The notes beneath the pieces were generated by a model. The model searched no databases, was not told the origin of the DNA, and worked only from the letters and a program-made list of their open reading frames with translations. The position numbers and the translations under genes were made by a program. Positions 35,324 to 59,600 of a stretch of DNA of 64,000 nucleotides are shown here, one piece after another. The DNA comes from a virus (Duplodnaviria; Caudoviricetes): positions 32,001-96,000 of IMG/VR virus record IMGVR_UViG_3300033120_000868; one strand, written 5' to 3'. The stretch's first letter is position 1; each line of letters begins with the position of its first letter.

Positions 35324-35359
35324 CTAATTTGTATAAATTAATATTTTTTTGTAATTTTG
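35321..35359 (+). promoter_or_regulatory. TAACTAATTT-class promoter (cargo genes)
   Basis: TAACTAATTTG 35321; TAATTTTG 35352. Confidence 0.75.
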
Positions 35360-35401
35360 CCCCTTAGATTAATACCCTTTGGGGCATTTTTTATTATACA
35401 A

Positions 35402-39632: not shown

Positions 39633-39652
39633 AAATAAAAGTAGTAACTTTG
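39621..39652 (+). promoter_or_regulatory. Plain Bacteroidota-type promoter
   Basis: TTTG 39621, TAACTTTG 39645; no TAACTAATTT box. Confidence 0.55.
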
Positions 39653-39668
39653 CAAAAAAGATATAATT

Positions 39669-42408: not shown

Positions 42409-45400
42409 ATGGTAGATATAGAAGATTTCAAAAAACAATTAGATTTAGCTTTCCCAACAAAAACTCCACAACAAGAAAAAGTTTTTGCTGAAATGGATGT
42501 AGAATCTAAAAAACAAGAATATGCTAACAAACTAAAAATACCTTCTGCACCAAGTTCAGGAGGTTTTTTAGATACCACTAAAATTAAATCTGAGCCAGGG
42601 TTAAGATTAGAAACTCCTAATTTTAATGTAGACGAAATATTTAGTAAAACTAACTCAGGAGAGTATATTGCTAAGTTTGATACTTACACACCTGGAATTG
42701 ATAATTATGATAAATTTTCAAGAGAGCAAACTACAGGAGATAAATGGTTGAATGGGGCAACTCAATTCACACAAACGGTTGTAAATTCTATAGCAGGTTT
42801 AGGTAATCTTGTTTATGGTACAGGTGCTATGATTAAAGAAGGGGAATTATCTTCTTTTTATGATAACGACTACATGAATTGGTTGGACGATGTTTCTGAG
42901 AAAAGAAGACTTAACAATCCGATTTACAAAACTTATGAAGAGCAAGAGATGGGCTTTGGAGAAAGCTTAGGTACAGCTTCTTTTTGGGCAGATGACTTTT
43001 TACAAGGAGCTTCTTTTACAGCAGGAATGATTGCTTCTGAGCTTGTTTTAAGAGGATTAACAGGAGGTGTCGTTGGAGGAGTTGGTTTATCAAGAGCAGG
43101 TCTTTCAGCAACTACTCAAGGAGCTTCTAAAATGAACACATTTAAAAATGCAATGGGACTTGCAAGAACCGCAGCGGTAAAACCTATAACAACAGCTATG
43201 TCAAATGTCCTTCCTAAATTAGGAGGAGCTACATTTGGGGCTAACTTAGGTAAAGTAGCTAATATTGTTAGAACAGGAGTTACTTCAGCAGGATATGAAG
43301 CAGGATTTGAAGCTCGTCACTTTATGCGTGAAATGAGAGCAAATTTTGAAGAAGATTTTATTGAAGCTAATGGAGTAGCACCAACAGAAGAAGACAGAGC
43401 AGAGTTTGAATCAGCTTTAAAATCAAAAGCCAATGGTTTGTTTGCTTTCAACGTAGCAGTTGTAGGTGCAAGTAATATAGCACAATTTGGCTCGGCTTTA
43501 GGGTTAAAACTTCCTAAAGTTAAAGGTTTTTCTTCTAATCCTGATAGTTGGATAAATAGAAAAGTATTTGGAGTCGGTGTACAAGACGGAGCTATTGCTA
43601 CAGCAACAATGGGTAACAAATTAGCAAGAGTAGGATACACTTTTGGTAAGAATGCTTTTTTAGAAGGTTTTGTGGAAGAAGGTTTGCAAGGAGTAGGTTC
43701 TAAAACAGCAGAAAAAATGCTGAAAGATTCTTATAGCTTGAATAATGCAAATCAAACTATGGGATATGCTAATGCTTTCTATCAATCTATGTCTGAACAA
43801 TATGGAACAGAAGAGGGGCTAAAAGAAGTTTACTTAGGAATGCTTATTGGAGCTATGACAGGTAGTGCAACTAATTTAGTTACAGCAAGAAGTTTAGCGG
43901 ATGGTAATTTTAAAGTATTAGACCAAAGAGCTAAAGGAATTGAAAAACAACTATTAAAAGGTGGGAGTTATTCTGCGGATAATATGGCTACAAGACTTTT
44001 ATCAGCAAATAGAACAGTAGCGAATAAAAGAGACGAACAAAAAGCTATTCAAGAAGGAGATATTTCAGGAGTACAAACAGCAAGGCATTCTGAAATGTTC
44101 AATCAAACTTTAAGAGGTATTGAATTAAATTATTTAGACCAAATTAAAGAGCAAACTTTACAGCAGTTAGATGTATTATCTGACGCGGAGATTGCAGAAA
44201 TGGCGGGAGTAGAAGTATCAGAAGCTTCAAGAATTAGAGAGGAATTAAAGAACGAATACAAAGCAGAAACAAAAGTAATTGAAGACACTATTAATGCTTC
44301 TAAAGAATTAATAGCAGGCTCACTTAATAAAGGTGAATATAATTTTGCGATTGAGGAGTTTCAAAAAAGAGGGTATAGTAAAGAGATGGCTAATGCTACA
44401 GTGGCTGATATGCTACAGAAATCTTTAGCTTATGAAATGTACATTGGTAAAGTAGCTTATGAACAAGCTGATAATTTCTTAAACACTTTCTTAAACGAGG
44501 TTCAATCTTCAATTGGTTCAACAAGAGTAAAGAAAAGTTTTGGTATCAATGACACTTTAAATCGTTCAGGAAAAGCTGCGAGAAGGAATTTTAATAAAAC
44601 TAAGAAAGAGTTACAACAAACTGTATCTGAATTAGAGCAGTTAGAAAAAGATTATAGAAGAGTTGAAAACATTATTTCTCAAACAACAGCCGAAACAGGT
44701 AATAGACAACAGTTAGTAGGGCAACTAAATGATTTAGTAAATAAAAGAGAAGAGTTAAATAAAAGAAAACAGGAGTTAGAGGCTAATGCAAATGCTTTGC
44801 TATCTTCTGCTAAATTGGAAACCCCTTTTGGAGCTACAGTAGACGCTACAGAGATTACAGCAGATGAAATTTTATCTTTTGAAGAAGATATTACAAAAAC
44901 ACTTGAAGACCTAAGAAAGGTTTCTCCTGAAAAAGCTGAAAGACTTGGGGGTATGTTATATGAATATCAAAAGTCGGTTAATGCCTACAAGACATTAGAC
45001 AAAAGAGTGAAACAATTAACAGACCCTAATGTAGGACTAAGAACTAAAAAAGGATTATTACCTTCTTTGTTTGGAAGAAAAACTCCAAATGAACAGACTG
45101 CCGAAATGATTAGGGGGCTTATAAACACTCACTATCAATTAGACAGAAACACTCAAGAAGGAGTAGAGAAGGCTGTTACCAAAGCAGCGGAAGAGCAATT
45201 AGTTGAGGCAGGAGTGGATAAGAAAGAAATTTTAGACTATTTAAAAGACCAACCTTATTTATTTGAGCAGTATAATGAATCAACAGAGAATATCATACCA
45301 ACTGAAGCTGAGATTGAAGAATACTATGATTTTGCTCAGAGAAATATAGCAGGAGAAGAACCCTTAACAGACGAAGAAAAGGTAAGATTTGAAGAGCTTA

Positions 45401-47796
45401 ATACAAAGTTAGCAAATTGGTATTTAACTGAATCTACACCTTTAGCAGATATCTTAAAACAGCAAGCTTTAAGAGAGACAAAAGTTGAAGAAACAGTAGA
45501 AGATGTTTTAACAGATGAAGATGTTGATGGGATGCTTGAAAAAGATAGAAAAACAAGCAGACCTTTCAATTTTTTACAGACCGTGCAAGATGTTTATTTA
45601 CAGTTTTACAAAGATAGTAATACATACTATTTTTCTCACCTGTCACCAAGAGGATTTTTAAAATTTATTGGGGCGACAACAGATTTAAAAGTACAAAGAA
45701 AAGATAGTAAAAAAGTTGAACCTTTTTCTTTAGACGATGAATTAAAAACAGGGGATAGAGTATTCTTTGGAAACAACATGTCGTTTGCTTTAGAGGACGG
45801 AGCGAGAATAAAAATTGTAACATCAAAAGAGAACTTTAATTCTTTCGGTTTTAAAACAAGAATGACAGCAAGTGGATATAGTGTAGTTTACGATGGAGAT
45901 AAAGTTATGAAATCTGATTATGCAGATATAGACACTTACTCACCTCAAGAAATAATGAGGTTAGCTAATGGAGATGAAATATTTGCTTTTATAGATATGG
46001 AAGATAGTTATAATCAATCTCTAACAGAAGAAGAGTTTGAGCATAATGTTAAAATATCTTTCAGAGACGCTCAAGGTAATAAAATTGCAGATTTAAAAGC
46101 TTTACATTTAGCAGAGGCACAAGATACTTCAGAAATACCTGTTAAGTTTTTAGAAGCTCGTGCAAAAGCAAAAGAATTAGCTTGGGGTAAAACAGGAAGT
46201 ATTGAGTTAGGAAATGTAACAGTTGAAACAGTATTTTTAGGAGCTCCAAACGTAGTTTTAGAAAATGGAGTAGAGAAATGGCAACCTGTTGATGAAAATT
46301 TAATAGAAGACTCAGGAATGTGGAATGGAAGTAAATTAGTAACTAAGAATGGCACAAAAGGGATAAGAACAGATTTACTAAAAGGTATTGATAAGAAAGT
46401 TCCTGTTGTAATTGTAAAAGTTGGAAACACTTTAATTGCATATCCTGTTAGAGGAGGAAAAGTAGCTTCTAATATAGCAGAAACTTTCACTGAAAAAGGA
46501 GCTAAATTAGCATTAAAAATTAATGAAACTCTTATTAAAAATGGTAAAAAACCTGCTCAAATATATTATAATTCAGAGACAGACCAAAACATGTATTCAG
46601 AGGATGGAACGCCAACTCAAGAATTGCAAGATGCTTTAGACAGAGTTAACAGTATAACAACAGAATCAACAAATATAGCAGAAGCTGAAATAAACATTGA
46701 TTTAAATGGTATACCGTTCTTAGCTCCAAAGATGGCAATTAACTTGGACAGTTTCCAAACAGTTAATGTAGCACCTGTAGGGCAGGCAACCTCCCAAAGT
46801 AATATAACTAGTGAAACAAAAGTAGAAGAGGTTTTAACACAGGAGCAAAAGGATAATTTAGAAAAAGCTAAAAAAGGAGAGAAAGCTTCTCCTGCTAAGA
46901 CTATTTTTAATTCTGTACAAGATTTACTGAAACACTCAAAATCACTGTTAGGTAAAACTTTTAACGTAAAAGGATTAAATGTTCAATTCGTTGACTATAA
47001 AGGCGAGGTTTTAACAGGAGCTGGTCAAAGAGTTTTTGTAAAAGTTTTAATAAATGGAGTTCCTGTAACGTTTTATAGTTCGACAGGTTCAGGCAAGAAA
47101 GCTTTACAAGAAGGAGTTTTTTATCCAACATTAGGTATAGAGGCAGACGAGAGATTTAATGGAACTTGGATTAATAAGATAGACGGTGTTGAAATGGCTT
47201 CTTATTATGACTCTGCTTCATTAGCAGCAGTAGGAGCTTTTATAGATTCTCAATTTGGAAACACTAATGGTTTTGCAGGAAGTATAAATCAAAACACAAC
47301 TGACTTACAAAATCCTAACAAAGAAGCCTTAACTAAAGAAAAAGCTTTGGAGATTAGAAGAGAGTATAACAGTGAATATTTAAATAGCGGTAGAGAAACT
47401 TTTTCAAATAATCAAGCTAAAGAAGTTACACAAGCTTTTAAAGATTTAGTTAATGAGATAAGAGGAAAAGTTAATAATACTCAACCTGCTCAAAAACCTA
47501 AAAGCAGATTAGACTTACAAGATGATTATTTTACTTTAGATTTTAAAACGTATGCTTATTTTAGAGATACAAATGGTGATGTTTATACAAAAGAAGTTGG
47601 AGAAATAGCTAGAGCTAAAACAATGTCTAACATGGTAAAAACTCTACCAAAAGCAGAACAAGAAAGAGTAAAACAAGCATGGACAAAGCAACCAGCAGAT
47701 TACTTTGAAAGTGAAAATTTTGAGAAAGTTGTACCAAACGTAGGAACAAGTTCGCGAACAAAACAAGGTAAGAAAAATAAAGATAAAGAGTGTTAA
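42409..47796 (+). CDS. Giant internal virion protein 1
   Basis: 1795 aa; Gly/Ala-rich hydrophobic N-terminal region (EGFVEEGLQ), coiled coils; sole Cys is the last residue. Confidence 0.75.
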   Translation: MVDIEDFKKQLDLAFPTKTPQQEKVFAEMDVESKKQEYANKLKIPSAPSSGGFLDTTKIKSEPGLRLETPNFNVDEIFSKTNSGEYIAKFDTYTPGIDNYDKFSREQTTGDKWLNGATQFTQTVVNSIAGLGNLVYGTGAMIKEGELSSFYDNDYMNWLDDVSEKRRLNNPIYKTYEEQEMGFGESLGTASFWADDFLQGASFTAGMIASELVLRGLTGGVVGGVGLSRAGLSATTQGASKMNTFKNAMGLARTAAVKPITTAMSNVLPKLGGATFGANLGKVANIVRTGVTSAGYEAGFEARHFMREMRANFEEDFIEANGVAPTEEDRAEFESALKSKANGLFAFNVAVVGASNIAQFGSALGLKLPKVKGFSSNPDSWINRKVFGVGVQDGAIATATMGNKLARVGYTFGKNAFLEGFVEEGLQGVGSKTAEKMLKDSYSLNNANQTMGYANAFYQSMSEQYGTEEGLKEVYLGMLIGAMTGSATNLVTARSLADGNFKVLDQRAKGIEKQLLKGGSYSADNMATRLLSANRTVANKRDEQKAIQEGDISGVQTARHSEMFNQTLRGIELNYLDQIKEQTLQQLDVLSDAEIAEMAGVEVSEASRIREELKNEYKAETKVIEDTINASKELIAGSLNKGEYNFAIEEFQKRGYSKEMANATVADMLQKSLAYEMYIGKVAYEQADNFLNTFLNEVQSSIGSTRVKKSFGINDTLNRSGKAARRNFNKTKKELQQTVSELEQLEKDYRRVENIISQTTAETGNRQQLVGQLNDLVNKREELNKRKQELEANANALLSSAKLETPFGATVDATEITADEILSFEEDITKTLEDLRKVSPEKAERLGGMLYEYQKSVNAYKTLDKRVKQLTDPNVGLRTKKGLLPSLFGRKTPNEQTAEMIRGLINTHYQLDRNTQEGVEKAVTKAAEEQLVEAGVDKKEILDYLKDQPYLFEQYNESTENIIPTEAEIEEYYDFAQRNIAGEEPLTDEEKVRFEELNTKLANWYLTESTPLADILKQQALRETKVEETVEDVLTDEDVDGMLEKDRKTSRPFNFLQTVQDVYLQFYKDSNTYYFSHLSPRGFLKFIGATTDLKVQRKDSKKVEPFSLDDELKTGDRVFFGNNMSFALEDGARIKIVTSKENFNSFGFKTRMTASGYSVVYDGDKVMKSDYADIDTYSPQEIMRLANGDEIFAFIDMEDSYNQSLTEEEFEHNVKISFRDAQGNKIADLKALHLAEAQDTSEIPVKFLEARAKAKELAWGKTGSIELGNVTVETVFLGAPNVVLENGVEKWQPVDENLIEDSGMWNGSKLVTKNGTKGIRTDLLKGIDKKVPVVIVKVGNTLIAYPVRGGKVASNIAETFTEKGAKLALKINETLIKNGKKPAQIYYNSETDQNMYSEDGTPTQELQDALDRVNSITTESTNIAEAEINIDLNGIPFLAPKMAINLDSFQTVNVAPVGQATSQSNITSETKVEEVLTQEQKDNLEKAKKGEKASPAKTIFNSVQDLLKHSKSLLGKTFNVKGLNVQFVDYKGEVLTGAGQRVFVKVLINGVPVTFYSSTGSGKKALQEGVFYPTLGIEADERFNGTWINKIDGVEMASYYDSASLAAVGAFIDSQFGNTNGFAGSINQNTTDLQNPNKEALTKEKALEIRREYNSEYLNSGRETFSNNQAKEVTQAFKDLVNEIRGKVNNTQPAQKPKSRLDLQDDYFTLDFKTYAYFRDTNGDVYTKEVGEIARAKTMSNMVKTLPKAEQERVKQAWTKQPADYFESENFEKVVPNVGTSSRTKQGKKNKDKEC

Positions 47797-47802
47797 AGAG
47801 AG

Positions 47803-47828
47803 AGGAGTTCAGAAATGAGCTCCTTTTT
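47803..47828 (+). terminator. Intrinsic terminator
   Basis: AGGAGTTC-agaaat-GAGCTCCT then TTTT. Confidence 0.75.
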
Positions 47829-47894
47829 AACTTATTTTAATATTTAATTTTTTTGTTGTATATTTGCGTATCAAAAAATAAAATTGTATATTTG
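47828..47894 (+). promoter_or_regulatory. TAACTAATTT-class promoter plus a tandem plain promoter
   Basis: TAACTTATTT 47828 with TATATTTG 47859; second TATATTTG at 47887. Confidence 0.7.
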
Positions 47895-47910
47895 CATAAA
47901 ATTAAGATAA

Positions 47911-50900
47911 ATGAACTGTAGAATAATTTACAAAGATAGTAAAATAGACCACGTACAAGCTGAAAATGGAGAAAGAAGTATTCTTTTTGATTCTCTTAAA
48001 GATATTTTTGGCGCGGAAAAAGCTTTAGAATTGTATGCTTTAACTGAAGAAGACGGCTACAAACAAAAAATACAAGAAAAAGTAAGAAGTTTTGTAGGAG
48101 TTACAGAAAAACAAATAGATAAACTATCTGAAGCAATTGATGCACAAGAAACATTAAATAAACTTGTAGAAACAGGTTTAGCTGATAACGTATATCAAAT
48201 GACTTCTGAAGAGATAGAAGCTAAGTTAGTTGAACTTGGAGTGGAAGCTGATGTGGCTAAACAGGTAGCTCAGTCAGGAGGATATTATTCTAACGCTAAT
48301 ACTGCATTTGCAAATTTAAAAGACAAAAATGTTAAAAATGTACAAGGTTGGATGAAAGCCCTAACTGACGTACAAAAAAATGGCGGAATAAAAAATGTAA
48401 ATCAAGAACTTGAATGGATAGGTCTTGAAGATTATTTAAATAACTACGTAAAAGAAAACAACCCAAAAGCAGGTAACATCCCTTCTTCTGTGGTTGAAGA
48501 TTATATTAAGTCAAATCAGATTGAGATTGTTGATGTTACTAAGGGAAACAATATTGTACAACAAGAGATTGAAGATAACAGTAAAAGATTAGATTTCATC
48601 ATTAACGAGTTAGATAATAAATATCTTTTTGATGAAAGCGGTAATAGAGTTCACTATATTAAAGATGAGAATCTACCAAAAGAAGCTGTAGCTTTAATAA
48701 TTGAGAGAGAAGAACTTAAAAAAAGAAACAGAGAACTTTTAAAATTAAATCAGAAAGACACAAAATACTCAGGATACCAACTAAAAGGAGCAGAAAACTA
48801 CAGAGAGGTATTGTTAACAGTTCCAAAAATAGGGCAAGAAAAAAACAGACAAAACCAAATAGATTTTGTAGATTCATTAAAGAAAAAATATAATGTTAAT
48901 ACTGTTATAGATTTAGATAAAGTTGTAAATGATGAGGAAAGAACTAAATGGGAAGAATTAACGACCAAAGCAAATATATCTCCTGAAAAGGATAATAAAT
49001 ATTTTAGTAGTCATTGGGAGGAAGCTAATATTTTAGCTCACGTAAGGTTAAATGAAAAAACTTTACCTGATGGACGTAAAGTGTTGATTGTTAATGAAAT
49101 TCAATCAGATTGGGCACAACAGGGGAGAAAGGAAGGATTTAAAAGAACAAAACAAGCTCAAAATGAACTTATAGCAGAGCATAGAAAAGTATTACAAGAT
49201 TTAGAAGAATTAGACGTACAAATAATCGATGCAGTAGATAATAAAAAACCTAATATTTTAGAACTAGGAGAAAAGAAAGCGGAATTAATTAAAAAATCAG
49301 ATGAATTAAGAAGTGATATTTTTAAACCTCGTGCTCCTCAAATGCCTTATAAAAACACAGACCAATGGACTGGAATTGTTGTAAGAAGAGTGATGCAAAT
49401 GGCTTCACAAGAAGGTTATGATGGAATTGCTTTTGCTACAGGTCAACAGTCTGCTGATATGTATAGTTTATCTAATCAAGTTGAAGTTCTGTATTACAAA
49501 AAGAATGAAGATGGAACTTATGAAGTAGATGCTGATTTAAAAAATGGAGATAATAGAAACATTGGCGAATCTGTAACAGAAGATAAACTTGCAGACTATG
49601 TAGGTAAAGAGGTTGCAAACAAAATTATTGCAGGAGAAGGTACAAACTCCCCATCTCGAATGGATGAAGGTTATAAGTTTTTAAAAGGTTTAGAACTTGA
49701 AGTCGGAGGAGAAGGTATGAAAACTTTCTATGATAAGATTGTACCTAAAGTAGTTCAAAAAGAAGCTCAAAGATTTGATAAAAACGCTAAGTTAGAGACT
49801 GTCGATTTTAGTGATAATTTTACTTTTAGTAAGAAAGAGTTAGATGATTACACGAATTATTTACTAAACAAATATAATTTAGATAAGACAGGGAGGTATA
49901 GAATATTAATAGGGAAAAATGCAACAACAGAAGAAGTAGCTAAATATAAAAACTTATTAGAGAATTTTAGAAAAGATAATGATAGTAAGACATCTCAAGG
50001 TGATAAACTATCTTTAGGAGTACAACCATACTTACCACTAACACAAGCTATAAAAGATTCAGTTAATCAAGGTATACCTCAATTCCAAAAATCAGGAATA
50101 ACTCCAATTACAAACGGGTTTATTTATAAGAATGATGTATATTTAAATAAGAATGCAGATGAATCTACAATGGTACATGAGTTTAACCATTTATACAACA
50201 ATTGGTTAAAACAAAACCGTCCTGAAGTTTATAAGAAAGGTTTAGATTTAATTAAGGAGGAGTTAAAAAAGAAGAACAGTGAAATCCAAGACATAATCAA
50301 TTTTGTAAAAACTAATCAACCAAAATTAGAAGGAGATGCACTTTTAGAAGAGATTATTACCGAAATGGTCGGAAGGAAAGGGCTTGAATTATTAAATGAG
50401 CAAAAAGATAAAGTAAAAAGCTCAGGAATAATTGACTATTTAAAACAAGTTTGGCAAGAAATTAAAAATATGTTAGGATTATCATCTTACACAGATGAAC
50501 AAATCCTAAACATGAATTTACAAGATTTTGCCAACGCTTCTGCTGTAGATTTATTGAGTGGAGAAAACATAGGAAGATTCTCAACAGATAGTAATGACAT
50601 TAGGTTTAGTCAAACTATACCAACATTTAAAGGAAATGCTGATATAGAGAGAATAAAAAAACTTAATAAAAAAGGAAACGAAGATGGAGCAACATTTAAT
50701 TTAGATGGAAGTACTTATGATAAGGGAGGTTTAATTATACCTGTAATTAGTTTAAATACTACTCAAAAGGAGTTATCGAAAGAGCTTATAGAAAAGTTTA
50801 TTCAGGAAAATTCAAGTAAGATTGGAGCTGATAATATTAAAGTAGGTATTTTTAAGTTTGAAGATTCTAATGAAGTATCTATAGATTTAAATGTAGTAGT

Positions 50901-53637
50901 AGATGCTAAGTATAGAGACATAGGTTTAACTTTTGGAAAGTATGCAGGACAAGAATCTTTATTTGATTTAAGTACTTTTTTACCTGCAAAAACAGGTGCA
51001 GATGGTAAGAACCCTAAAAATTTCACAGATGAGGAGTTTAGGGATATTGCTAATAGCTTATCAGAAGGTAAGTTACCTAGCTTTTTAAATTTATCTCCGC
51101 AAACTTCTACAAATTATGCAAATTTAACAGAAGATGGAGAAGGAAACTTTGTATTTTACCATGTAGGAGGTAAAGGATATGATGTAATAAAAAGAGGTAC
51201 AGGACAAAACACAGCAACAAGCAGAGAAGAAGCAACAGCTATAAACAGAGTAGGTGGAGTAGCAATGTATTATCCTGCTGAAAATGTTCAAGAGTCTATG
51301 TTTTCAGGAGAAGCTAAGTATTTAGTAAAAGTTCCTCAAGAGAAAGTTTACGACTTTAATAGAGACACTTTAAATTTATTAGACGAAGCTGAGCAAATGT
51401 TTAGAAAGCAGTTTCCTAATCAAGCTTTTGATAAAAACTCTAAGTTAGCTTTTGTAACTAAAATCGCTAATGAAAAAGGATTTGATGCAGTTGTAGCTAA
51501 TTGGGATAATACAACAAGAGTTCAAACAACTAAAGAGTTGAAACCTTTAGATGAGCAAATTACAGAAGGTAATAAAATTGTTAAAGATTTTTCCGCCGAA
51601 AATAAATTTAAATCAAATAAAGATAAAGGTTGGCAAGTTGTCCCAACAGTTATGCAAAGCAAGCTATTAAAAGACGTATATGATAAAATAGATACTTTAG
51701 TAGGAAACGACTTTTCAAATCCTTTGTATAGAGTTAGAGAAATGGCAGGGTATACTTTTGAAGACAGATTTGCACCATTTAAATCTCAAGATGAGATAAC
51801 GGATGTAGTAGAAAAATCAGACCTTCCTCAAGAAGTGAAAGATGAGTACAATCAAGCAGTTAACTCCAAAGACAAGCTAGGATATTCAAAATTGACTAAA
51901 AAACCTTCTTTAAAGATAGACATAAGAGAAGTTAACGGAAGATTAGTTGTTGAAACTTTAGTAAATGAGACTAAAGCAGGTGCGTTGAGAATGTTGCCTT
52001 ATGAAGATGGTTATAAAGTAGAGTCAGTTATAGTGTACGATAAGTATCAAAATAGACGTTTGGGGACACGATTGTATCAAGAAGCTATAAAGTTTCTATT
52101 GAAGAGTCAAACTCCTTTATACTCTCTTAAAGTACGTAGTGAAAATGCTAAAAAGATTTGGGACAAGTTTGTAGAAATAGGTGTGGCTCAAAAAGTAGGT
52201 GAAGATTATATTGCACCAAATAAAGGAGGATTGGATAAGAACAATGAGGCAAATCCTTCTGATGTAATGCAATATGCAAACACAACAGATGAAAAACTGT
52301 CAAAAGAAGAAACAGCAGAAGCTATCGACTTAACAGTTTCTTTAGGAGTTGAATCAAGCCAAGAAGCTGTAGCTATTTTAAAGGATACGTTCTTAGAAAA
52401 CAACTCTTTTGTGTTTGATAAAAAGAAAATGAAAAAATCAGGGTTTAATGATTATGAAATTACAAAGATATTAGTTGATGTAAATTTACAGAATCAAATT
52501 AAGAACAACTTGGCAAAATTAGAGAACATGGATTTTTCTGTACCTCTAATGGACGTTCAAACAACACCTGAAATTGGAATTTTTGGAAAACAAAAAGTAA
52601 AACCGAAAGTTAAAACTGTAAATGTAAAAACAGTAAACGAACAAGGAGAAGTAATAGATAAAGTTTCAGATACAAAAGAGTTATTAAGAAAAACTTATCC
52701 TGATACTTTACCAACAGAAATTCCACAAATAATAAGTAGTCTTTTAAAAGCTTCTGAAAGTGTAGTTAATAAGTATAATGATTTATTTTATAATACTTTA
52801 GATGATTTAAAAGATGTTGCTTTAGATTTAGGTGTAGATTTAAAAGATATTGAGAATAGAGTGTTTCCTTTAGAAAACTTTAAATCTTTTGTAAACTCTT
52901 TAATGAATTATTATACAAATCCAAGTGATGCTTTTGCTGAAGTTTATGATGAGTTTTTTGAGAATTATGGCGTGGAAAAAGCTACTAAACCAACAATATC
53001 AACTCCATATACAGAATATGAGTTATTTGATAAATTCAATTTAGTAAGAAACGGAGACGAATATGTTAAAGTTGAAGATGTAGAAATCGAACCGTCTGCT
53101 GAAAGACAAGCTAAAATTCCACAATTAGAAGTAGAAGATTTTGCTGTTGATTTTGATAAATTAGAGAAATTAGTTTATCATAAAGAGCAGTTAGGAGTTG
53201 AAATGAAAACTTTACAGAAGCCTTTAGTTGAAGAGATTAATCTTAGAGAAGTTAAGAAAAATCCTTACTTAAAAGCAACTTCTGAAGGTGTAAAATTAGT
53301 AAGCGAAGACCCTCTAACAGCTCAAAAAGCAGAGTTATATGGGTACGAGCCAAAAGTGGCGGAAAAACAACCTAAAAAGATAGAAACAGATTATTCTTTA
53401 ATCCAAGATGTATTAGTAACACAACTAACTTCCGAAAATAAAGTAAGAACACCAAAAGGTAACTTTACTAAATTTATGGACGACAATAATAAATCAGTGT
53501 TTTTATTAGACGGTTCAAAACAAAGTACAGTAGATTTAGAAGGATATTTATCTAAAGCGGACAACACACCAAAAATCGAGGCTAAAAAATTATACTCAAA
53601 AGAAGAATATGAAAATAATTTTGGATGTTTAAATTAA
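47911..53637 (+). CDS. Giant internal virion protein 2, polyvalent (EIQSD module, zincin, SAM-lyase-like, ART-like, GNAT)
   Basis: NEIQSDW, HEFNH, GQESLFDL, VFYH...KGFDAV, KYQNRRLGTRLYQ; no polymerase DFDxD motif. Confidence 0.75.
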   Translation: MNCRIIYKDSKIDHVQAENGERSILFDSLKDIFGAEKALELYALTEEDGYKQKIQEKVRSFVGVTEKQIDKLSEAIDAQETLNKLVETGLADNVYQMTSEEIEAKLVELGVEADVAKQVAQSGGYYSNANTAFANLKDKNVKNVQGWMKALTDVQKNGGIKNVNQELEWIGLEDYLNNYVKENNPKAGNIPSSVVEDYIKSNQIEIVDVTKGNNIVQQEIEDNSKRLDFIINELDNKYLFDESGNRVHYIKDENLPKEAVALIIEREELKKRNRELLKLNQKDTKYSGYQLKGAENYREVLLTVPKIGQEKNRQNQIDFVDSLKKKYNVNTVIDLDKVVNDEERTKWEELTTKANISPEKDNKYFSSHWEEANILAHVRLNEKTLPDGRKVLIVNEIQSDWAQQGRKEGFKRTKQAQNELIAEHRKVLQDLEELDVQIIDAVDNKKPNILELGEKKAELIKKSDELRSDIFKPRAPQMPYKNTDQWTGIVVRRVMQMASQEGYDGIAFATGQQSADMYSLSNQVEVLYYKKNEDGTYEVDADLKNGDNRNIGESVTEDKLADYVGKEVANKIIAGEGTNSPSRMDEGYKFLKGLELEVGGEGMKTFYDKIVPKVVQKEAQRFDKNAKLETVDFSDNFTFSKKELDDYTNYLLNKYNLDKTGRYRILIGKNATTEEVAKYKNLLENFRKDNDSKTSQGDKLSLGVQPYLPLTQAIKDSVNQGIPQFQKSGITPITNGFIYKNDVYLNKNADESTMVHEFNHLYNNWLKQNRPEVYKKGLDLIKEELKKKNSEIQDIINFVKTNQPKLEGDALLEEIITEMVGRKGLELLNEQKDKVKSSGIIDYLKQVWQEIKNMLGLSSYTDEQILNMNLQDFANASAVDLLSGENIGRFSTDSNDIRFSQTIPTFKGNADIERIKKLNKKGNEDGATFNLDGSTYDKGGLIIPVISLNTTQKELSKELIEKFIQENSSKIGADNIKVGIFKFEDSNEVSIDLNVVVDAKYRDIGLTFGKYAGQESLFDLSTFLPAKTGADGKNPKNFTDEEFRDIANSLSEGKLPSFLNLSPQTSTNYANLTEDGEGNFVFYHVGGKGYDVIKRGTGQNTATSREEATAINRVGGVAMYYPAENVQESMFSGEAKYLVKVPQEKVYDFNRDTLNLLDEAEQMFRKQFPNQAFDKNSKLAFVTKIANEKGFDAVVANWDNTTRVQTTKELKPLDEQITEGNKIVKDFSAENKFKSNKDKGWQVVPTVMQSKLLKDVYDKIDTLVGNDFSNPLYRVREMAGYTFEDRFAPFKSQDEITDVVEKSDLPQEVKDEYNQAVNSKDKLGYSKLTKKPSLKIDIREVNGRLVVETLVNETKAGALRMLPYEDGYKVESVIVYDKYQNRRLGTRLYQEAIKFLLKSQTPLYSLKVRSENAKKIWDKFVEIGVAQKVGEDYIAPNKGGLDKNNEANPSDVMQYANTTDEKLSKEETAEAIDLTVSLGVESSQEAVAILKDTFLENNSFVFDKKKMKKSGFNDYEITKILVDVNLQNQIKNNLAKLENMDFSVPLMDVQTTPEIGIFGKQKVKPKVKTVNVKTVNEQGEVIDKVSDTKELLRKTYPDTLPTEIPQIISSLLKASESVVNKYNDLFYNTLDDLKDVALDLGVDLKDIENRVFPLENFKSFVNSLMNYYTNPSDAFAEVYDEFFENYGVEKATKPTISTPYTEYELFDKFNLVRNGDEYVKVEDVEIEPSAERQAKIPQLEVEDFAVDFDKLEKLVYHKEQLGVEMKTLQKPLVEEINLREVKKNPYLKATSEGVKLVSEDPLTAQKAELYGYEPKVAEKQPKKIETDYSLIQDVLVTQLTSENKVRTPKGNFTKFMDDNNKSVFLLDGSKQSTVDLEGYLSKADNTPKIEAKKLYSKEEYENNFGCLN

Positions 53638-53643
53638 TTTTCA

Positions 53644-53651
53644 TATCTTTG
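53644..53651 (+). promoter_or_regulatory. -7 promoter box
   Basis: TATCTTTG ending 28 nt before ATG; TTTG about 24 nt upstream. Confidence 0.55.
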
Positions 53652-53678
53652 CAAAATAAAATAACAAAAATAATATAA

Positions 53679-56600
53679 ATGGCTTGTAAATTAGTATACA
53701 ACAATGAAGGACAATTTGTGAAGGCTCTAACTCCTGATGGGAGAGAGTCTTCCTTATTTAAACAAATTTTAAGTATTCCGCACATTAGAAGTGTAAAGGA
53801 AGCTTCTGAACTATATGCAAATATTTTCTCTAAGAAAATGTATTCTATTATGGGAGAAAAAGGAGCTCAAAACTTAGATAAAGCTCAAGAAGTTACATTC
53901 CGTATGGATAATCTTCGTATTGCTAAAGAAATGGAGAAAGAAAATAAATCTCCAAAAGAAATAAAATTAGCAACGGGGTGGGAAAGAAGTGAAGTAGATA
54001 ATAAATTCAGGTATGAGATTTTAGACGGAAGTTTTTCTAATTTAAATTATGAAAGAAATCAACCTCATGGTACTTTTACAAACGGAGTAGGTGTCTTACC
54101 TTTATCTGAAATATATCAAAATAAGGAACTATTTGACGCTTATCCAAATATAGAAAATAGTTCTGTAGTCATATACTCAACAGATAACCCTGTATTTGAC
54201 CAAGCTACTATGTTTAATTTTCAAAATACTATATTTATAAATGAAAGAAAATCAATTACCACAAATACCGAAGGACTTCATACCCTCACCAACCAGGGGA
54301 GAAGAGTATTATTACACGAATTATCCCACTCTGTTCAAAATATTGAAGGATTTGGAAGAGGAGATAATCCTGCAACAATGGCAACAAGAATTAAAGATGC
54401 CCTTAATGAATTTAAAAGCGAGAATAAGACAGTTGATGAAATAAAGCCAAATACTATTTTAAACACTTTAAAAAATATAGGTGTTGACTTTTCTTTTGGA
54501 TTAGATGATTTTTCTATAGACTATATAGCACAGAATTATTCTGAAGACTTATACGAAAGAGTTTCAGGAGAAGTTGAAGCAAATAACGTATCAAAAAGAT
54601 TTGGAATGAGTTTAGAAGAAAGAAGAAATTCCCTTTTTTCAGAGACACAAGACGTATCTACAGAAGACCAAATATTTTTAGAAAATAATTTAGGAGTGAG
54701 TTCAAAAGTAGAACCACAACTAAACTTCCAATCAGATAAAGGAAATACATTCAAAACTTTCAAAGAAGCTTTAAAAGATTCTACAGGAGGTGATATGAAC
54801 GTGTTATTTGATGACCAAGTAGTTGGAGTAATTAACAGTGAGCAAAATTTAGATACTTTTGGAGGAACAGTAAACCATTTAATTGCAAGTAATATTTTAT
54901 CAGAAAACACTATTGTAGAAAACGGTAAAGTTTATTTAAAAGCAGAAGGTTTTGACCCTCTAAAACAACTTATTAATGAAGACTACTTAAAAGAATATTT
55001 CCCACTATCAAAAATTACAAGAGACGGTAAAGTGGAAGTATTAGAAAGAGTAGAACCTTCTGTTATTAGAGATGTATTTAGGACTTTCTCGCCAAGTGAA
55101 GGACAACTTTCGGAAGAAACATTAAAAGACAGAATGTTAAATTTCTTAAAAGAGGTTGGCATCACTGTAACTTCTATTGATAATTATGTAAAAGCTTATA
55201 AGATTAGAAATGGTGTTGCACCAGGAGCTGAAGCTATTGCAGACTTTGCTAATCAAGTAATTGCGTTTAAAGATGGAGAAATAGAAATTGACAAACTTTC
55301 AGAAGAAACAGCTCACTTTATTATTGAGAATTGGGATGAAGCTGAGATTAGAAATCTTACACGTAATATTCACAAAACTCAAACTTTTGCTGAGTTCTAT
55401 CAACAATATTATGAGATTTATCAAAGAGAGAATCCTGAAATGTCTGCCGAAGAATTAGATTTTTTCACAAGAAAAGAAATTTTAGGAAAAGAGTTAGCAA
55501 AAAGTTTACAAGATAGATTTGATGCTACAAATAAAGAGCCTAACATTCTTAAAAGAATTTATGAACTTTTTGCTAAATTTATCAGTAGTTTAACAACTCA
55601 AGGTAATTATAAAGCTCAGTTAGAAGATTTAACTGAGAAGGTTGATGATTTATTATTAAGAAAAGATGCAGGAGCTGTTTTTCAATTGAAAAATAAAAAG
55701 TTTAGAATGTACTCATTGCCTCAAACTAATGTAGTTAAGGCGGTAGCGGAACAAGAAAAACTTTTAGCAAGAACAGGGCAAGGCTCTAATAAAACAGCAA
55801 AAGAGGTTTTGGATAGCGTTTCAAAAGCCGCGGAAAAAGCTACAACGGATAGTGTAGTTACTTTAGCTAAAAGACAGGTAAAATATGTTAAAGAAGCCGT
55901 AGATGCAGCCGTTAGAAGAGGAAGACCTCTTTCAACAGAAGAGTCATTAGTTTTAAACAACTTAACTCATGCGGTTAGACCTGCTTTAGAAGGATTACAA
56001 GCTTTTATAAAGAATAAGTCGGAATATAAAAAACAAGCAGACGTAGTTGAAAAAACTTTATCTGAGATTTCTATGATTTCAGGCTCTTATAATAACGCGG
56101 AAAACAATTTAGTAGACCAATTATTAGACAGAATTATTGAAAGAAATCCTGGATTAGAAAGTAAAAGAGACCAATTAAAAGCAGAAATAGAAACAGTACA
56201 AAGGGATACTAATTACATGTATTCTTACTTTGGACAGGTTTCTCACGCTTCTGACCCAATTCTACAAATGTTAGCTGTTGTAGGTAGTGATATTTACAAT
56301 GAAGCGAGGATAAACTATAACGAGCGTCAAATGGCGTTTAATAGAAAAATAAAAGAACTAGGATTTGTAGAAAGAGATGTGAACAAGTTAGTTGGCAGTG
56401 ATGGTCATATTATCTCTAAGTGGGATTTTGAAGAATTTGCAGAATTTGAAAGATATGCAAGAGGTAAAGCTTATTTAGATAATGTTGATGCTATTATAGC
56501 AGATTTAGAATCAAGACCTGTAGAAAACCAAGATAATTTAGAAGAGCATAAAGCTTATAAAGCAATGTCTCAAGAAGAGTTTTTAGAAAAATTTGAATAT

Positions 56601-59600
56601 TTCCCTGCAATTACAAATAAAGTTTTGGCAGCAAGAACTTCAGCTCAAGCAACAGAGATTATAAATCAAGGAGAAGAAACTACTTTATCAGACGAAGAAG
56701 TACAAAAGAGAATTACAAACAATGCAAATTTAAGTGATGTAACTAAAGCTACAATAAGAGGCTTTATGGAGACAAGAGCTATGATTCGTAAAAACATGAA
56801 AACTTCTTCTTCAGGCACTAAAATTTATACGTTACAGAACAGACACGATATGGAGTATTTGAATATGGAGCGTAGAAAAGCTATGTCAATTTATAAGACA
56901 GAAAACGCTAAGGAAGTTAAGCAAGGACTATCCACTTCAACTGCCAAAATTGGGCAAGAAAATTTATTTTTAGAAATTGAAAATCAGTATTTAAATTTAG
57001 ATAGAGCTAACGCGTCGGATGAAGCAATTATAGCTTTTGAAATGCTAAGACAGCAGAAAGAGTTCATGTCTAAAAACACTTCAAGACTTTCAGGAGTTAC
57101 AGAAAAATTCATGCAGGATTTAGAAGATATGGAAAAAGACCCTGAAGTGACAAGAGAAGATTTAATAGATTTTATTAAACTTAACACTTCTGTAGGGTTT
57201 TCTGATTCATTTTTTGAAGGGGAATTTACTTCTGTTTTTGATACAATAGAGAATGATGTAAATACACCTGATGAGTTACAAGACACTTTAATTTTATATA
57301 AGGAAGCTTTAAAAGAAAGAAAAGCTATTTTAGCTAGGTATAGAGACCCAAACAATGCAACAAATGTTTTGACCCATAACATGAATGATTTAGATTTGTA
57401 TAACCTTGAACAACTTACAATAGAGTTAGAGGGACAAACTAAAACATTACTGGACTATGCTAAAAAACAAGGATTAACTTCAGAGCAAGCAGAAAAAAGA
57501 ACAGTAAAAGCTCCAAATGAGTCTTATTATGAGGAATTGAAAACTCAAAATTTAGAAGATTTTGAAGATATATACAGTTTTACTATAAAACACATGACTC
57601 CAAAAGCTAAAATGGCTGTAGGGGCGTATAAATTAGCAATTGAATCAGGGAATATTCCTGAAAGAATGGAGTCTTTAGTTGTAGAATATGGGGCTAATGA
57701 AGAAGGTATTTTAAAATATGCTCAATCTAAAATGCTACCATATTACAGTTCAAATTCTCCTATAGGATTAGTAGAGTTTTATGACAATTTAAGAAATTCT
57801 CAAACAGCAGTTTCTGACCTTGTAAAAGGGTTAGATGCAGACCCTGATGTAAGACTTTCAGTTTCTTATGATTATTCTGATAGTACTTCTGATGAAGCTT
57901 TAAATAAATTTAAAGACCCTGATTTTAGAGCCAACACAAGAGAGCCGTCTTTAAGAAAACCTGCTCCTACAGTATTTGGAAAAACATTCGATTTTAATAA
58001 TAAGGAGTATAGTAAATTAACTCCTCAATTATTAGAATTGCAAAAAGCTTACTTAGACTTTCAAGAAGAAAATTTAAAAGGTTATGGTGTAGAAGCAAAT
58101 TATAATATATATAAACTACCTCAAGTAGAAAGAGCAAATTTAGATAAGCTTAAAGGGTTTGGTAAAGACACAAAAGCTACTTTTAAGGAGTATGTGGAAA
58201 GGATAACAACTCATAGAGTAGATGAGCAGGATTTTGGAGCAGATAGAGAAATGTTTAATGCGGGTATAAAAACAATACCTAAAAAATATTTAAGTAAATT
58301 AAACAAAGAAGAAGTATCGACAGATTTATTATATTCTTCAGCTTTACTTGCACAACAAGTAGAATTATATAAAGCAAGAGTTAAATATTTTGGAGAAATT
58401 TCAGCTTTAGAGAAGAAGTTACAGTCAAGACAGTTTATTGGAGGAAAACCTGTACAATCTTCAAATACTTATGCTATGTTTAAGTCGGCTGTAGACAATA
58501 TGATGTTTGGAATACAAGAGACTCAACAGATGAGAGTTAGCGTTCCAATTTTAAATAAGGAGGTAGACTTATCTAAGGTTTTAAGAACCTTGCAAAGATA
58601 CGTATCTAATCTGAGTTTAGCATTTAATCCTATTGTACCAGCAACTTCCATGCTAACAGCTATGTCAGCTTATGTAGCTGAACCATTTATAAAACAGTAT
58701 ATAGACCCTGAAAGTTACAAGAAAGGGTCTATGACAGCTAAAAAATGGATGGGAGCAAGTATGAAGGATACAGGAAGTATTGATGTAAAATCGGATGCTG
58801 TAGCTGTAGGAAATCATTTTGGTATTTTTGATTTAGCTCAAAGGTATAAGAATGCAAATTATGAAAAGTTTGTGAGAACAGCAGTTGGTAACGCTTCTTA
58901 TGGATTACACACAGTAGGTAATTTTATACCGCTAACTCAAGCTGTCGCAGTAACGCTTACAGCGCATAGATTTAGTAATAATAAATTAATTACAAGAAAA
59001 GAGTTTGCAGGAACAGATGTTGAATGGGGCAGATTAAAAAGTGTAGCTGATTACATAGAAAATAGTAATGGGGAGATGACTTACAACTCAGAAATGTTAA
59101 GAGAAAACGGCATAACACCTGAACAGTGGAAAAACATTGAGTTAGGGCTTATGTCAAGAGTTGGTAAGATTGTTGAACGAATTGATGGGCAGATTAAAAC
59201 TCAAGATAGAACAGTAGCGCAAAGAAATTTCTTACTGTCTTGGAGTATGCTTCATAAGGGGTGGTTAGCAATCGGTACAGCTAATGCTTTTAAAGGAAAG
59301 CAGATTAATATGTTAACAGGTCAAGTTGAGCAAGGAAAATATACAGGAGCATTAAGTTGGGCGATGAAATCAGCAGGTCAAAAATTTAATATTAAGAATA
59401 TTAAAGATAAGTACGGAGAAGTAGATGAGGCTGATAAAGTTTCAGCAAGAAGAGTTTTAGTAGAGTCAGGGGTTTTAATGATATTAACTATTTTAGGATT
59501 TTTTATAGCGGCAGGTGCTGACGACGATGAAGAAAGTACAACAAAACAGCTTGCAAATTATTTAGCTTTAAGAACTAAAAATGAAACAATTTCTTCTCAA

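What the first reader, a model, noticed from the sequence alone, without database searches (positions are those of the whole stretch)
47911..53830. Giant proteins 2 and 3 share an N-terminal cap that protein 1 lacks
Seen: MNCRIIYKDSKIDHVQAENGERSILFDSLKDIFGAEKALELYA vs MACKLVYNNEGQFVKALTPDGRESSLFKQILSIPHIRSVKEASELYA (MxC...Y...G..S.LF......A.ELYA). Only the two proteins with an N-terminal Cys have it. Inference: a docking domain that captures the Cys-bearing tail of the preceding protein. In both proteins the accessory domains start right after this cap and end near a similar segment (LDKNNEANP in protein 2, KVEPQL in protein 3), suggesting a shared insertion site for payload domains.
Basis: partly seen in the sequence, partly recalled or inferred. 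Interest (0 to 1): 0.7.

Follow-up and report, generated by a model that had tools for sequence, protein, structure and literature searches.

The report
Cysteine cap on chained phage cargo
Two giant injected proteins of this crAss-like phage start with the same small folded cap, which holds a cysteine, nearly always follows a protein ending in a cysteine, and stays in front while payload domains are swapped in behind it, so it is probably the clasp that ties the injected proteins head to tail.

Summary
Proteins 2 and 3 share a ~52-residue N-terminal module that protein 1 lacks.

- **Homology:** pairwise BLASTP is weak (E 0.84). HMMs built only from the relatives of one protein find the other's N-terminus at E 1.5e-6 and 7.4e-8.
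- **Spread:** the profile finds 756 proteins in 1.84 billion. The best 150 all match at the protein's start, and 146 of 148 checked have a Cys within residues 1-8 (usually at 3-6).
- **Fold:** both caps are predicted as a beta-hairpin plus three helices. Both rank the N-terminus of the phi14:2 virion RNA polymerase (6VR4) second of 48,161 chains, at low Z.
- **Upstream Cys:** among 46 non-redundant caps with a large upstream ORF, 45 follow one ending in Cys 0-4 residues from its end. Controls gave 8 of 76.
- **Cys depletion:** cap proteins have 14 internal Cys in 111,917 residues.

The best reading is an N-terminal clasp of a head-to-tail disulfide chain, with payloads inserted behind it. A disulfide of this kind (Cys1715-Cys5) was seen by cryo-EM in cyanophage A4. 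Docking by the cap itself is inferred, not shown.

The scan has noted the terminal-cysteine chain before, on this genome and on others. The cap family and the insertion hinge are the additions here.

The parts
47911..48066 (+). Cap of protein 2 (residues 1-52). Cys3 codon at 47917-47919; predicted beta-hairpin 4-8/11-16 and helices 24-33, 35-45, 48-62.
   Evidence: HMM from P3-type caps, E 1.5e-6; AF2 pLDDT 87.2.
53679..53834 (+). Cap of protein 3 (residues 1-52). Cys3 codon at 53685-53687; predicted beta-hairpin 4-7/13-17 and helices 25-31, 39-50, 52-59.
   Evidence: HMM from P2-type caps, E 7.4e-8; AF2 pLDDT 80.8.
47791..47793 (+). Codon of Cys1795, the last residue and only cysteine of protein 1 (gene 42409-47796). 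Proposed partner of Cys3 of protein 2.
53626..53628 (+). Codon of Cys1906 of protein 2, third residue from the end, in an F-G-C tail. Proposed partner of Cys3 of protein 3.
48067..52230 (+). Variable payload of protein 2 (residues ~53-1440) between cap and core. Includes a GNAT domain at residues 1341-1414 (51931-52152). Segments recur in other polyvalent proteins such as P0023.
52231..53634 (+). Conserved core of protein 2. It begins with the LDKNNEANP segment (52231-52257) and ends in the Cys tail.
   Evidence: P0096, P0027 and P0035 align from residue ~1442-1451; P0049 from 1313.
53835..54704 (+). Payload cassette of protein 3 (residues 53-342): LPD23 (residues 73-117, 53895-54029) plus a zincin-like H-E-x-x-H region. 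Absent from cassette-less homologues.
54705..59915 (+). Conserved core of protein 3, from the KVEPQL segment (54705-54722) to the acidic C-terminus, which has no Cys. Homologous to phi4:1 gp035 and, distantly, crAss001 gp49.
42409..47796 (+). Protein 1, the cap-less first member of the chain, with only the C-terminal Cys. Homologous to phi4:1 gp038 and crAss001 gp47.
35357..42407 (+). Three further cysteine-free proteins (332, 1096 and 912 aa) between the muzzle gene and protein 1, read as cargo from their position. The 1096- and 912-aa proteins match PHROG families annotated 'virion structural protein'.
29306..35323 (+). Crassvirus muzzle protein, which places the block in the cargo region of a crAss-like genome.
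   Evidence: PF25731, E 1.6e-14.

Best explanation
The cap is a ~52-55-residue N-terminal module. It has Met, then 1-4 residues, then the protein's only N-terminal cysteine, then a beta-hairpin and three short helices.

The cap marks the non-first members of a head-to-tail chain of otherwise cysteine-free injected cargo proteins in this crAss-like phage and its close relatives. Some chain members elsewhere carry a different N-terminal Cys leader.

Proposed mechanism:

1. The cap presents Cys3 next to the single C-terminal cysteine of the preceding protein. It probably docks that tail first, non-covalently.
2. Once the particle is oxidised, a disulfide locks P1 to P2 and P2 to P3 into one quasi-linear thread of ~5,800 residues.
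3. The overhangs at each junction are only 0-5 residues and there are no internal cysteines. The thread can therefore pass the narrow tail one protein after another.
4. The disulfides would be reduced in the host cytoplasm, releasing the parts.

Because the clasp must stay at the extreme N-terminus, new effector cassettes (LPD23-zincin, ART, kinase, GNAT and others) can only be inserted behind it. They sit at a hinge in front of the segment that starts the conserved core.

Shown here: the cap homology, its strictly N-terminal position, its Cys, the near-absolute pairing with an upstream C-terminal Cys, the cysteine depletion, and the insertion hinge.

Inferred: the disulfide itself (by analogy with cyanophage A4), docking by the cap, the threading rationale and reductive release.
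For: **Cysteine pattern in the window.** P1 has Cys1795 only, P2 has Cys3 and Cys1906 only, and P3 has Cys3 only. The three upstream proteins between the muzzle gene and P1 have none. The rest of the window's ORFs run at about 1% Cys.

**Cap family.**
- Reciprocal HMM hits at E 1.5e-6 and 7.4e-8.
- 756 profile hits, the best 150 all at the protein start; 146 of the 148 checked have Cys within residues 1-8, and the other two have mis-called starts.
- Of 70 hits of 500 aa or more, nearly all have one or two Cys, at position 3-6 and, if a second, in the last 3 residues.

**58 loci analysed** (the window, 6 metagenome loci and 51 IMG/VR loci).
- 65 of 65 caps carry the N-terminal Cys.
- Among the 46 non-redundant caps with a large upstream ORF, 45 follow an ORF ending in Cys; controls 8 of 76; p 6e-24.
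- Cap proteins have 14 internal Cys in 111,917 residues, against 0.77% in the other ORFs.

**Topology by family.** P1-like ORFs are C-only in 28 of 28, P2-core ORFs are N+C in 18 of 20, and P3-core ORFs are N-only in 55 of 57.

**Cultured phages.**
- Cellulophaga phage phi4:1: gp038 (Cys1957 of 1957), gp037 (Cys4, Cys516) and gp035 (Cys3, with the cap). All are annotated as MS/MS-verified virion proteins.
- The terminal Cys are also kept in crAss001 gp47/gp50/gp49, DAC15, crAss002, IAS virus and phi14:2 g067/g066.

**Experimental precedent.** Cryo-EM of cyanopodophage A4 shows a disulfide between Cys1715 of gp27 and Cys5 of gp26, with the gp27 C-terminal helix docked in gp26 (PMC12002296). I confirmed that these are the only cysteines of the 1717-aa and 1114-aa proteins. 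crAss001 virions contain structural disulfides (PMC10172136).

**Fold.** Both caps are confident small domains. Both rank the N-terminal residues of phi14:2 gp66 (6VR4) second of 48,161 chains.

**Tail code.** Tails in front of P3-type caps carry an aromatic residue within 7 residues of the Cys in 24 of 31 cases. Tails in front of P2-type caps do so in 0 of 15. P1-family tails switch from 0 of 9 to 4 of 5 when they directly precede a P3-type cap.

**Hinge.**
Against: - No experiment or multimer model here shows the cap touching a tail.
- Both structural matches have low Z (3.2 and 3.3).
- The tail/cap covariation is confounded by phylogeny: the four switching P1 tails belong to one clade.
- The helical half of the cap recurs internally, without hairpin or Cys, upstream of ART-PolyVal domains. 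It may be a generic adaptor rather than a tail receptor.
- Other chain members use different N-terminal Cys leaders, so the clasp does not need this cap: a short M-S-C type leader, crAss001 gp50, phi4:1 gp037 and A4 gp26.
- The N-termini of crAss001 gp49 and DAC15 gp077 are only cap-like by eye (HMM E 0.02-0.5).
- The partner gene is not always adjacent. Small genes or a 416-aa Cys-free gene can intervene.
- The host cytoplasm is reducing, so the bond could form only after assembly or lysis.
Confidence: 0.6

Rival explanations
1. The cap is an N-terminal leader for loading into the capsid or for entering the tail channel first, like the capsid-targeting sequence of T4 internal proteins. The cysteine serves another purpose or is incidental to the cap's function.
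For: The cap is strictly N-terminal and conserved in front of freely swapped payloads. crAss001 cargo is thought to leave in the N-to-C direction (PMC10172136).
Against: P1 and the three upstream cysteine-free proteins lack the cap although they are read as cargo of the same block. The only invariant columns are the Cys and one Ser. A leader function does not predict that 45 of 46 upstream proteins end in Cys.
Confidence: 0.15
2. The cap is mainly a generic adaptor of polyvalent proteins, the module found in front of ART-PolyVal domains, which P2 and P3 inherited by paralogy. Only the first ~16 residues (Cys plus hairpin) belong to the junction, and the tail docks elsewhere, as in A4 where it enters an interdomain cleft.
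For: Ten internal partial copies start at profile position ~17 and lack hairpin and Cys. The two scanned against Pfam lie immediately upstream of ART-PolyVal. Many caps run straight into an ART-like V-D-E-N-G-E-P strand. A4 docking geometry is described in PMC12002296.
Against: In P2 and P3 of this window, and in all cassette-less forms, no ART domain follows, yet the whole cap including its helices is kept. What follows the cap is variable, so no other conserved surface lies near the Cys.
Confidence: 0.15
3. The terminal cysteines are joined not by a disulfide but through a bridging metal ion or another thiol chemistry, or each binds a third virion component.
For: Only one Cys per terminus is conserved and no chemistry was tested here. 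Numbers of N- and C-terminal Cys balance in every complete block, which any 1:1 pairing would explain.
Against: No conserved His, Asp or second Cys lies near the junction to complete a metal site. A disulfide of exactly this geometry was seen in A4. The order C-only, N+C, N-only along the genes fits protein-to-protein pairing, not a common third partner.
Confidence: 0.07
4. The resemblance of the two N-termini is chance or compositional.
For: Pairwise BLASTP E is 0.84.
Against: Reciprocal family HMMs give E 1.5e-6 and 7.4e-8, with next-best hits at 0.17 and 1.3. There are 75 hits below 1e-10 in 1.84e9 proteins, the best 150 hits all at residue 1. Both caps have the same predicted fold.
Confidence: 0.01

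Closest known systems
Cyanopodophage A4 (A-4L) ejection proteins gp27 and gp26, cryo-EM (PNAS 2025, PMC12002296)
   Same: Consecutive giant ejection proteins. The first has its only Cys 2 residues from the C-terminus (1715 of 1717). The next has its only Cys at position 5. A disulfide between them was observed, with the C-terminal helix docked into the next protein.
   Different: There are two proteins, not a chain of three or four. The gp26 N-terminus does not match the cap profile. The tail docks in an interdomain cleft. No payload cassettes. Different phage family (Saffermanviridae). The paper does not generalise the feature.
N-terminus of Cellulophaga phage phi14:2 virion RNA polymerase gp66 (PDB 6VR4)
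   Same: The middle protein of the homologous cargo trio. It starts M-A-C, then has an F-G-D-W helix and an N-E-D-G-E-P segment like many caps. The upstream g067 has its only Cys as its last residue. Residues 2-55/89 are the second-best structural match of both cap models among 48,161 chains (Z 3.2, rmsd 2.1 A, 47 residues, 23% identity; and Z 3.3, rmsd 3.0 A, 50 residues).
   Different: Sequence match to the cap profile is weak (16 bits) and the hairpin region is shorter. The preprint of the structure paper mentions no N-terminal domain, cysteine or disulfide.
PhicrAss001 cargo proteins gp47, gp50 and gp49 (Bayfield et al. 2023, PMC10172136)
   Same: P1 is homologous to gp47 (E 2e-11) and P3 to gp49 (E 7e-6). 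The cysteine topology matches: gp47 has Cys2339 of 2341 only, gp50 has Cys5 and Cys2404, and gp49 has Cys5 only. They are virion cargo thought to be ejected partly unfolded.
   Different: The gp49 N-terminus is only cap-like (not significant). The middle protein is the RNA polymerase, whereas here it is a multi-effector polyvalent protein. The paper does not mention cysteines of cargo proteins.
Polyvalent proteins of phages and conjugative elements (Iyer et al. 2017, PMC5512222)
   Same: Arrays of effector domains (LPD23, ART-PolyVal, Kinase-PolyVal, zincins, GNAT) delivered with the DNA. P3 passes the Pfam LPD23 cut-off and relatives carry ART/Kinase-PolyVal.
   Different: Here the arrays are inserted between a Cys cap and a crass-type cargo core. 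The paper contains no mention of cysteine, disulfide, crAss or Cellulophaga.
Cysteine-free ejection proteins of Schitoviridae (N4 gp50-52, DEV gp71-73; PMC11445570)
   Same: Giant ejected proteins with strongly suppressed cysteine, explained by passage through the envelope.
   Different: Those proteins lack cysteine altogether. No terminal pairs and no cap.
Docking domains of modular PKS/NRPS assembly lines (own knowledge; analogy only)
   Same: Short C-terminal and N-terminal modules on consecutive gene products set the order of a multi-protein line, with partner-specific codes.
   Different: Non-covalent, unrelated in sequence and fold as far as tested, and cytoplasmic enzymes rather than virion cargo.

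Membership tests
   P2 at E 1.5e-6 against the P3-type HMM; P3 at E 7.4e-8 against the P2-type HMM.
   P2 and P3 both have Cys3. 65 of 65 cap ORFs have Cys at 3-6, and 146 of 148 database hits have Cys within residues 1-8; the other two have mis-called starts.
   AF2 models with pLDDT 80.8 (P3) and 87.2 (P2) have the same order of elements. These are predictions only.
   P1 ends in Cys and P2 has Cys third from its end. 45 of 46 non-redundant cases.
Disulfide-clasped ejection proteins (type case: cyanophage A4 gp27-gp26) | Sole or near-sole Cys at the C-terminal end of one protein and at position ~3-5 of the next | tested here: met
Disulfide-clasped ejection proteins (type case: cyanophage A4 gp27-gp26) | Disulfide bond physically present in the virion | not testable with these tools
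   Needs non-reducing gels, mass spectrometry or cryo-EM. Observed only in A4 (PMC12002296).
Crassvirales-type cargo block | Genes downstream of a crassvirus muzzle protein, homologous to known virion cargo | tested here: met
   PF25731 hit at E 1.6e-14. P1 matches phi4:1 gp038 (8e-100) and crAss001 gp47. P3 matches phi4:1 gp035 (3e-140) and crAss001 gp49. The phi4:1 proteins are annotated as MS/MS-verified.
Polyvalent proteins (Iyer et al. 2017) | Two or more effector/LPD domains in one polypeptide delivered with the DNA | tested here: met
   P3: LPD23 at 30.3 bits (cut-off 27) plus an H-E-x-x-H region seen in the sequence. P2: GNAT at 21.3 bits (cut-off 20.7) plus segments shared with the ART/Kinase-PolyVal protein P0023. 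Delivery is inferred from homologues.
N-terminus of phi14:2 gp66 (PDB 6VR4) | Same fold and detectable sequence relation | tested here: inconclusive
   Rank 2 of 48,161 chains for both models, but Z is only 3.2 and 3.3. The profile match is 16 bits.
Pfam or PDB families | Any curated model or solved chain matching the cap by sequence | tested here: not met
   No Pfam hit at E<=0.01. The PDB profile hits are summed 5-bit matches to designer PPR repeats, an artefact.

The most novel reading that the evidence does not exclude
Cap and tail form a partner-specific covalent docking code. Different cap subtypes would recognise different C-terminal tail motifs (for example an aromatic F-x-C tail for P3-type caps and polar tails for P2-type caps), so that the phage specifies the order of a 3-4-protein, ~6,000-residue thread. 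The thread would be injected as one string and cut by the host's reducing cytoplasm. The cap would also define a universal plug-in site through which crAss-like phages exchange injected effector cassettes.
Probability: 0.35. Interest if true: 0.8.

Novelty: new variant of a known kind. Interest (0 to 1): 0.68.

Why it matters
crAss-like phages are the most abundant viruses of the human gut and are common in the sea. How their megadalton cargo, including the virion RNA polymerase, is loaded and injected in order is an open question (PMC10172136).

- A conserved N-terminal clasp module gives a concrete, testable mechanism for ordered co-injection.
- It explains why these proteins are stripped of cysteine except at their tips.
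- It links the single disulfide seen in cyanophage A4 to a rule that holds in the crAss-like loci and cultured crassviruses examined here.
- The fixed hinge behind the cap shows where these phages plug in and exchange injected effector domains (ART, kinase, zincin, GNAT). That matters for reading phage counter-defence arsenals and could serve as a natural site for delivering proteins with phage particles.
- Cultured systems exist for a direct test: Cellulophaga phages phi4:1 and phi14:2, crAss001, and the genetically tractable A4.

Tried and rejected
**Searches that led nowhere**
- blastn of 47500-55000 against 50,697 phage records: no match.
- The search for related loci with P3 alone: no relative in IMG/VR. 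With the short cap alignment the tool found no stretch conserved enough. This was solved with a full-length P3-family alignment.
- Foldseek against PDB and the ESM Atlas: nothing usable for the cap.
- phmmer of P3 against PDB: nothing.
- Profile A2 against PDB: only designer PPR repeats through ten summed 5-bit matches. Rejected as an artefact. A few of the 756 weak database hits could be of this kind; the best 150 are not.

**Wrong first guess**
- I first took the 2005-aa ORF 29306-35323 for the virion RNA polymerase. PDB phmmer found nothing and Pfam shows it is the muzzle protein.

**Membership claims withdrawn**
- crAss001 gp49 and DAC15 gp077 N-termini look cap-like but are not significant, so I do not claim membership.
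- The A4 gp26 N-terminus is not a cap.

**Readings considered from the sequence and rejected**
- Split intein or trans-splicing: no intein-sized blocks, and the Cys is not at a fixed +1 position.
- Lipoprotein lipobox: no signal peptide.
- CaaX prenylation: the Cys is 0-4 residues from the end, not at a fixed fourth-from-last position.
- Prohead-protease site at the A-x-E of the cap helix: the Glu is not conserved in P0013 or P0014.

**Not run**
- A read-through P1-P2 pseudo-fusion for folding. The tool returns no coordinates, so a Cys-Cys contact could not be judged.

Full report
**What is there.** The window is part of a 143,493-bp virus record.
- It encodes a terminase, a portal and a crassvirus muzzle protein (PF25731, E 1.6e-14) at 29306-35323.
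- Downstream lie six ORFs on the + strand: 332, 1096 and 912 aa, then P1 (42409-47796, 1795 aa), P2 (47911-53637, 1908 aa) and P3 (53679-59918, 2079 aa).
- This is where PhicrAss001 keeps its cargo proteins (PMC10172136).
- P1 is homologous to phi4:1 gp038 (E 8e-100) and crAss001 gp47 (2e-11). P3 is homologous to phi4:1 gp035 (3e-140) and crAss001 gp49 (7e-6).
- In Cellulophaga phage phi4:1 these proteins are annotated as virion proteins verified by MS/MS.

**The observation.**
- BLASTP of P2 against P3 puts the cap first, in register from residue 1, but at E 0.84.
- I collected relatives and built a 9-sequence, 52-position alignment whose only invariant column is the Cys.
- Searched against 1.84 billion representatives, it finds 756 proteins at E<=1e-3 and 75 at E<=1e-10. 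The best 150 all match at the protein start.
- As a fair test I built one HMM from caps of proteins with a P3-type core and another from caps of proteins with a P2-type core. The first finds P2 residues 1-56 at E 1.5e-6 (next hit in the six-frame window 0.17). The second finds P3 residues 1-47 at E 7.4e-8 (next 1.3). P1 is not hit.
- The whole genome has only these two copies.
- AlphaFold2 with a 56-sequence alignment gives the same small fold for both: a hairpin directly after the Cys, then three helices (pLDDT 80.8 and 87.2).
- No Pfam model covers it.

**The cysteines.**
- P1 has one Cys, its last residue. P2 has two, at 3 and 1906 of 1908. P3 has one, at 3. The three upstream ORFs have none. 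The remaining ORFs of the window carry about 1% Cys.
- Of 70 database hits of 500 aa or more, nearly all have only one or two Cys, at position 3-6 and, if a second, in the last three residues. One is a 2,831-aa protein with Cys3 alone.

**Test of the association.** A full-length P3-family alignment retrieved 51 IMG/VR loci. With the window and six metagenome loci this made 58 loci.
- ORFs along the strand read almost everywhere as: Cys-free, then C-terminal Cys only, then zero to two proteins with both, then N-terminal Cys only.
- 65 of 65 cap ORFs have the N-terminal Cys. After removing near-duplicates 49 caps remain, 46 with a large upstream ORF. 45 of those ORFs end in a Cys 0-4 residues from the end.
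- The one exception has a Cys-free 416-aa gene in between, and the protein before that gene ends in Cys.
- Control ORFs show a Cys in the last ten residues in 8 of 76 (Fisher p 6e-24).
- Cap proteins hold 14 internal Cys in 111,917 residues.
- By family: P1-like ORFs are C-only in 28 of 28, P2-core ORFs are N+C in 18 of 20, and P3-core ORFs are N-only in 55 of 57.
- The terminal Cys are also kept in crAss001 (gp47, gp50, gp49), DAC15, crAss002, IAS virus and phi14:2 (g067 ends in Cys; g066 starts M-A-C), with more internal Cys in the gut phages.

**The payload hinge.** Local BLAST of P2 and P3 against the hits shows cap, variable insert and conserved core.
- In the P3 family the core starts at P3 residue ~342-345, the KVEPQL segment. 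Eight homologues have the core starting at their residue 44-57, directly behind the cap. Others carry inserts of 120 to about 1,000 residues.
- In the P2 family P0096 joins the cap to P2 residue ~1451, just after LDKNNEANP, and P0049 joins it to residue 1313.
- Short homologues such as P0037 have an L-D-x-N-G-E-P-like segment about ten residues after the cap.
One refinement: the rear boundary in P2 relatives varies, and the GNAT domain is itself optional.

**What the cap is related to.**
- Ten internal partial copies exist in polyvalent proteins. They start at profile position ~17, lack hairpin and Cys, and the two scanned against Pfam lie just upstream of ART-PolyVal domains. The helical half therefore looks like a reused adaptor, and the Cys-hairpin is the strictly N-terminal part.
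- Foldseek finds nothing.
- An exhaustive alignment to 48,161 chains ranks the N-terminus of the phi14:2 virion RNA polymerase (6VR4_B) second for both models: Z 3.2, rmsd 2.1 A, 47 residues, 23% identity; and Z 3.3, rmsd 3.0 A, 50 residues.
- That protein is the middle member of the homologous trio. It begins M-A-C, continues with an F-G-D-W helix and an N-E-D-G-E-P segment, and follows a 1797-aa protein whose only Cys is its last residue.
- The Z values are low and the profile match is only 16 bits, so I call this probable, not proven.

**Mechanism.**
- The C-terminal helix of gp27 inserts into gp26, and a disulfide joins Cys1715 of gp27 to Cys5 of gp26 (PMC12002296).
- I checked the genome: these are the only cysteines of the two proteins. 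The gp26 N-terminus does not match the cap profile.
- crAss001 virions also contain structural disulfides.
- Suppression of Cys in ejected proteins is known from Schitoviridae (PMC11445570).
- The best reading is therefore a dock-and-lock clasp. The cap holds the preceding tail, and oxidation after assembly locks the pair.
- The very short overhangs (Cys at 3-6; 0-4 residues after the C-terminal Cys) and the lack of internal Cys keep the linked proteins threadable. Reduction in the host would release them.
- A clasp that must stay at the tip explains why payloads enter behind it.
- Suggestive of a code: tails in front of P3-type caps carry an aromatic residue near the Cys in 24 of 31 cases, tails in front of P2-type caps in 0 of 15, and P1-family tails change from 0 of 9 to 4 of 5 when they directly precede a P3-type cap. 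This is confounded by shared ancestry.

**Limits.**
- No contact between cap and tail was shown, and the disulfide is inferred.
- Other chain members use different N-terminal Cys leaders.
- The partner gene is sometimes separated by inserted genes.

**Novelty.**
- The papers I could search do not describe the cap, the terminal-cysteine rule in crAss-like phages, or the hinge.
- The A4 paper reports one such bond without generalising.
- The scan itself has noted the cysteine chain before, on this genome and on others.

Noticed in passing
window 47799-47828 and 47850-47905; 53640-53660: A terminator-like hairpin follows P1 (13 pairs plus a T run; 0.0 expected in shuffles). T-A-n-n-T-T-T-G-like motifs, the Bacteroidota -7 promoter type (own knowledge), lie upstream of both the P2 and P3 starts. 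Each chain gene may therefore have its own promoter.
   Followed up: partly
L002:4881-5969, L004:20694-26642, L013:4399-10824, L016:19172-22201: A second, shorter kind of N-terminal Cys leader (M-x-C, aromatic, then Y/I-x-G ... E-F type) heads other chain members. In these loci it follows tails of the hydrophobic-E/K-x-hydrophobic-C type. It does not match the cap profile.
   Followed up: partly
P0023 residues 1576-1637, P0060 218-286, P0089 205-260 and seven more: Internal partial copies of the cap's helical half (A-P-N-G-K-P-S ... W-F-G-D-W) sit directly upstream of ART-PolyVal domains in P0060 and P0089, the two scanned, outside the Pfam model. This may be an undescribed adaptor element of polyvalent proteins.
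   Followed up: partly
window 35357-42407: Three ORFs (332, 1096 and 912 aa) between muzzle and P1 contain no cysteine at all. The 332-aa one has a sub-threshold transglycosylase-like hit (25.6 bits, cut-off 27).
   Followed up: partly
window 47911-53637: P2 sits where relatives (phi14:2, crAss001) have the virion RNA polymerase as the N+C middle protein. Here no RNA polymerase signature was found by Pfam; it is a multi-effector protein instead. Where this phage keeps a virion polymerase, if it has one, was not examined.
   Followed up: no
L013:3726-4409; L016:7635-9890; L009:16172-16531 (phi4:1 gp036); L011:7946-15760: Unrelated genes are inserted between chain partners: a NUMOD3 homing endonuclease, an RNA ligase plus PNKP on the opposite strand, a small non-structural gene, and an ~8-kb block in csAssE-Sib. 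Adjacency is therefore not required for pairing.
   Followed up: no
L011:15902-22304 (phage csAssE-Sib); P0026; L014:12968: Annotation problems. The P3-like gene of csAssE-Sib is split into a 281-aa cap piece and a 1885-aa core by overlapping calls, likely a frameshift or sequencing error. P0026 and the L014 gene have starts called too far upstream of the real M-x-C start.
   Followed up: no
L012 (crAss001 gp45) and L070 (A-4L gp28): Non-chain cargo proteins carry a close internal Cys pair (crAss001 gp45 Cys390/398; A4 gp28 Cys1036/1039), unlike the chain members.
   Followed up: no
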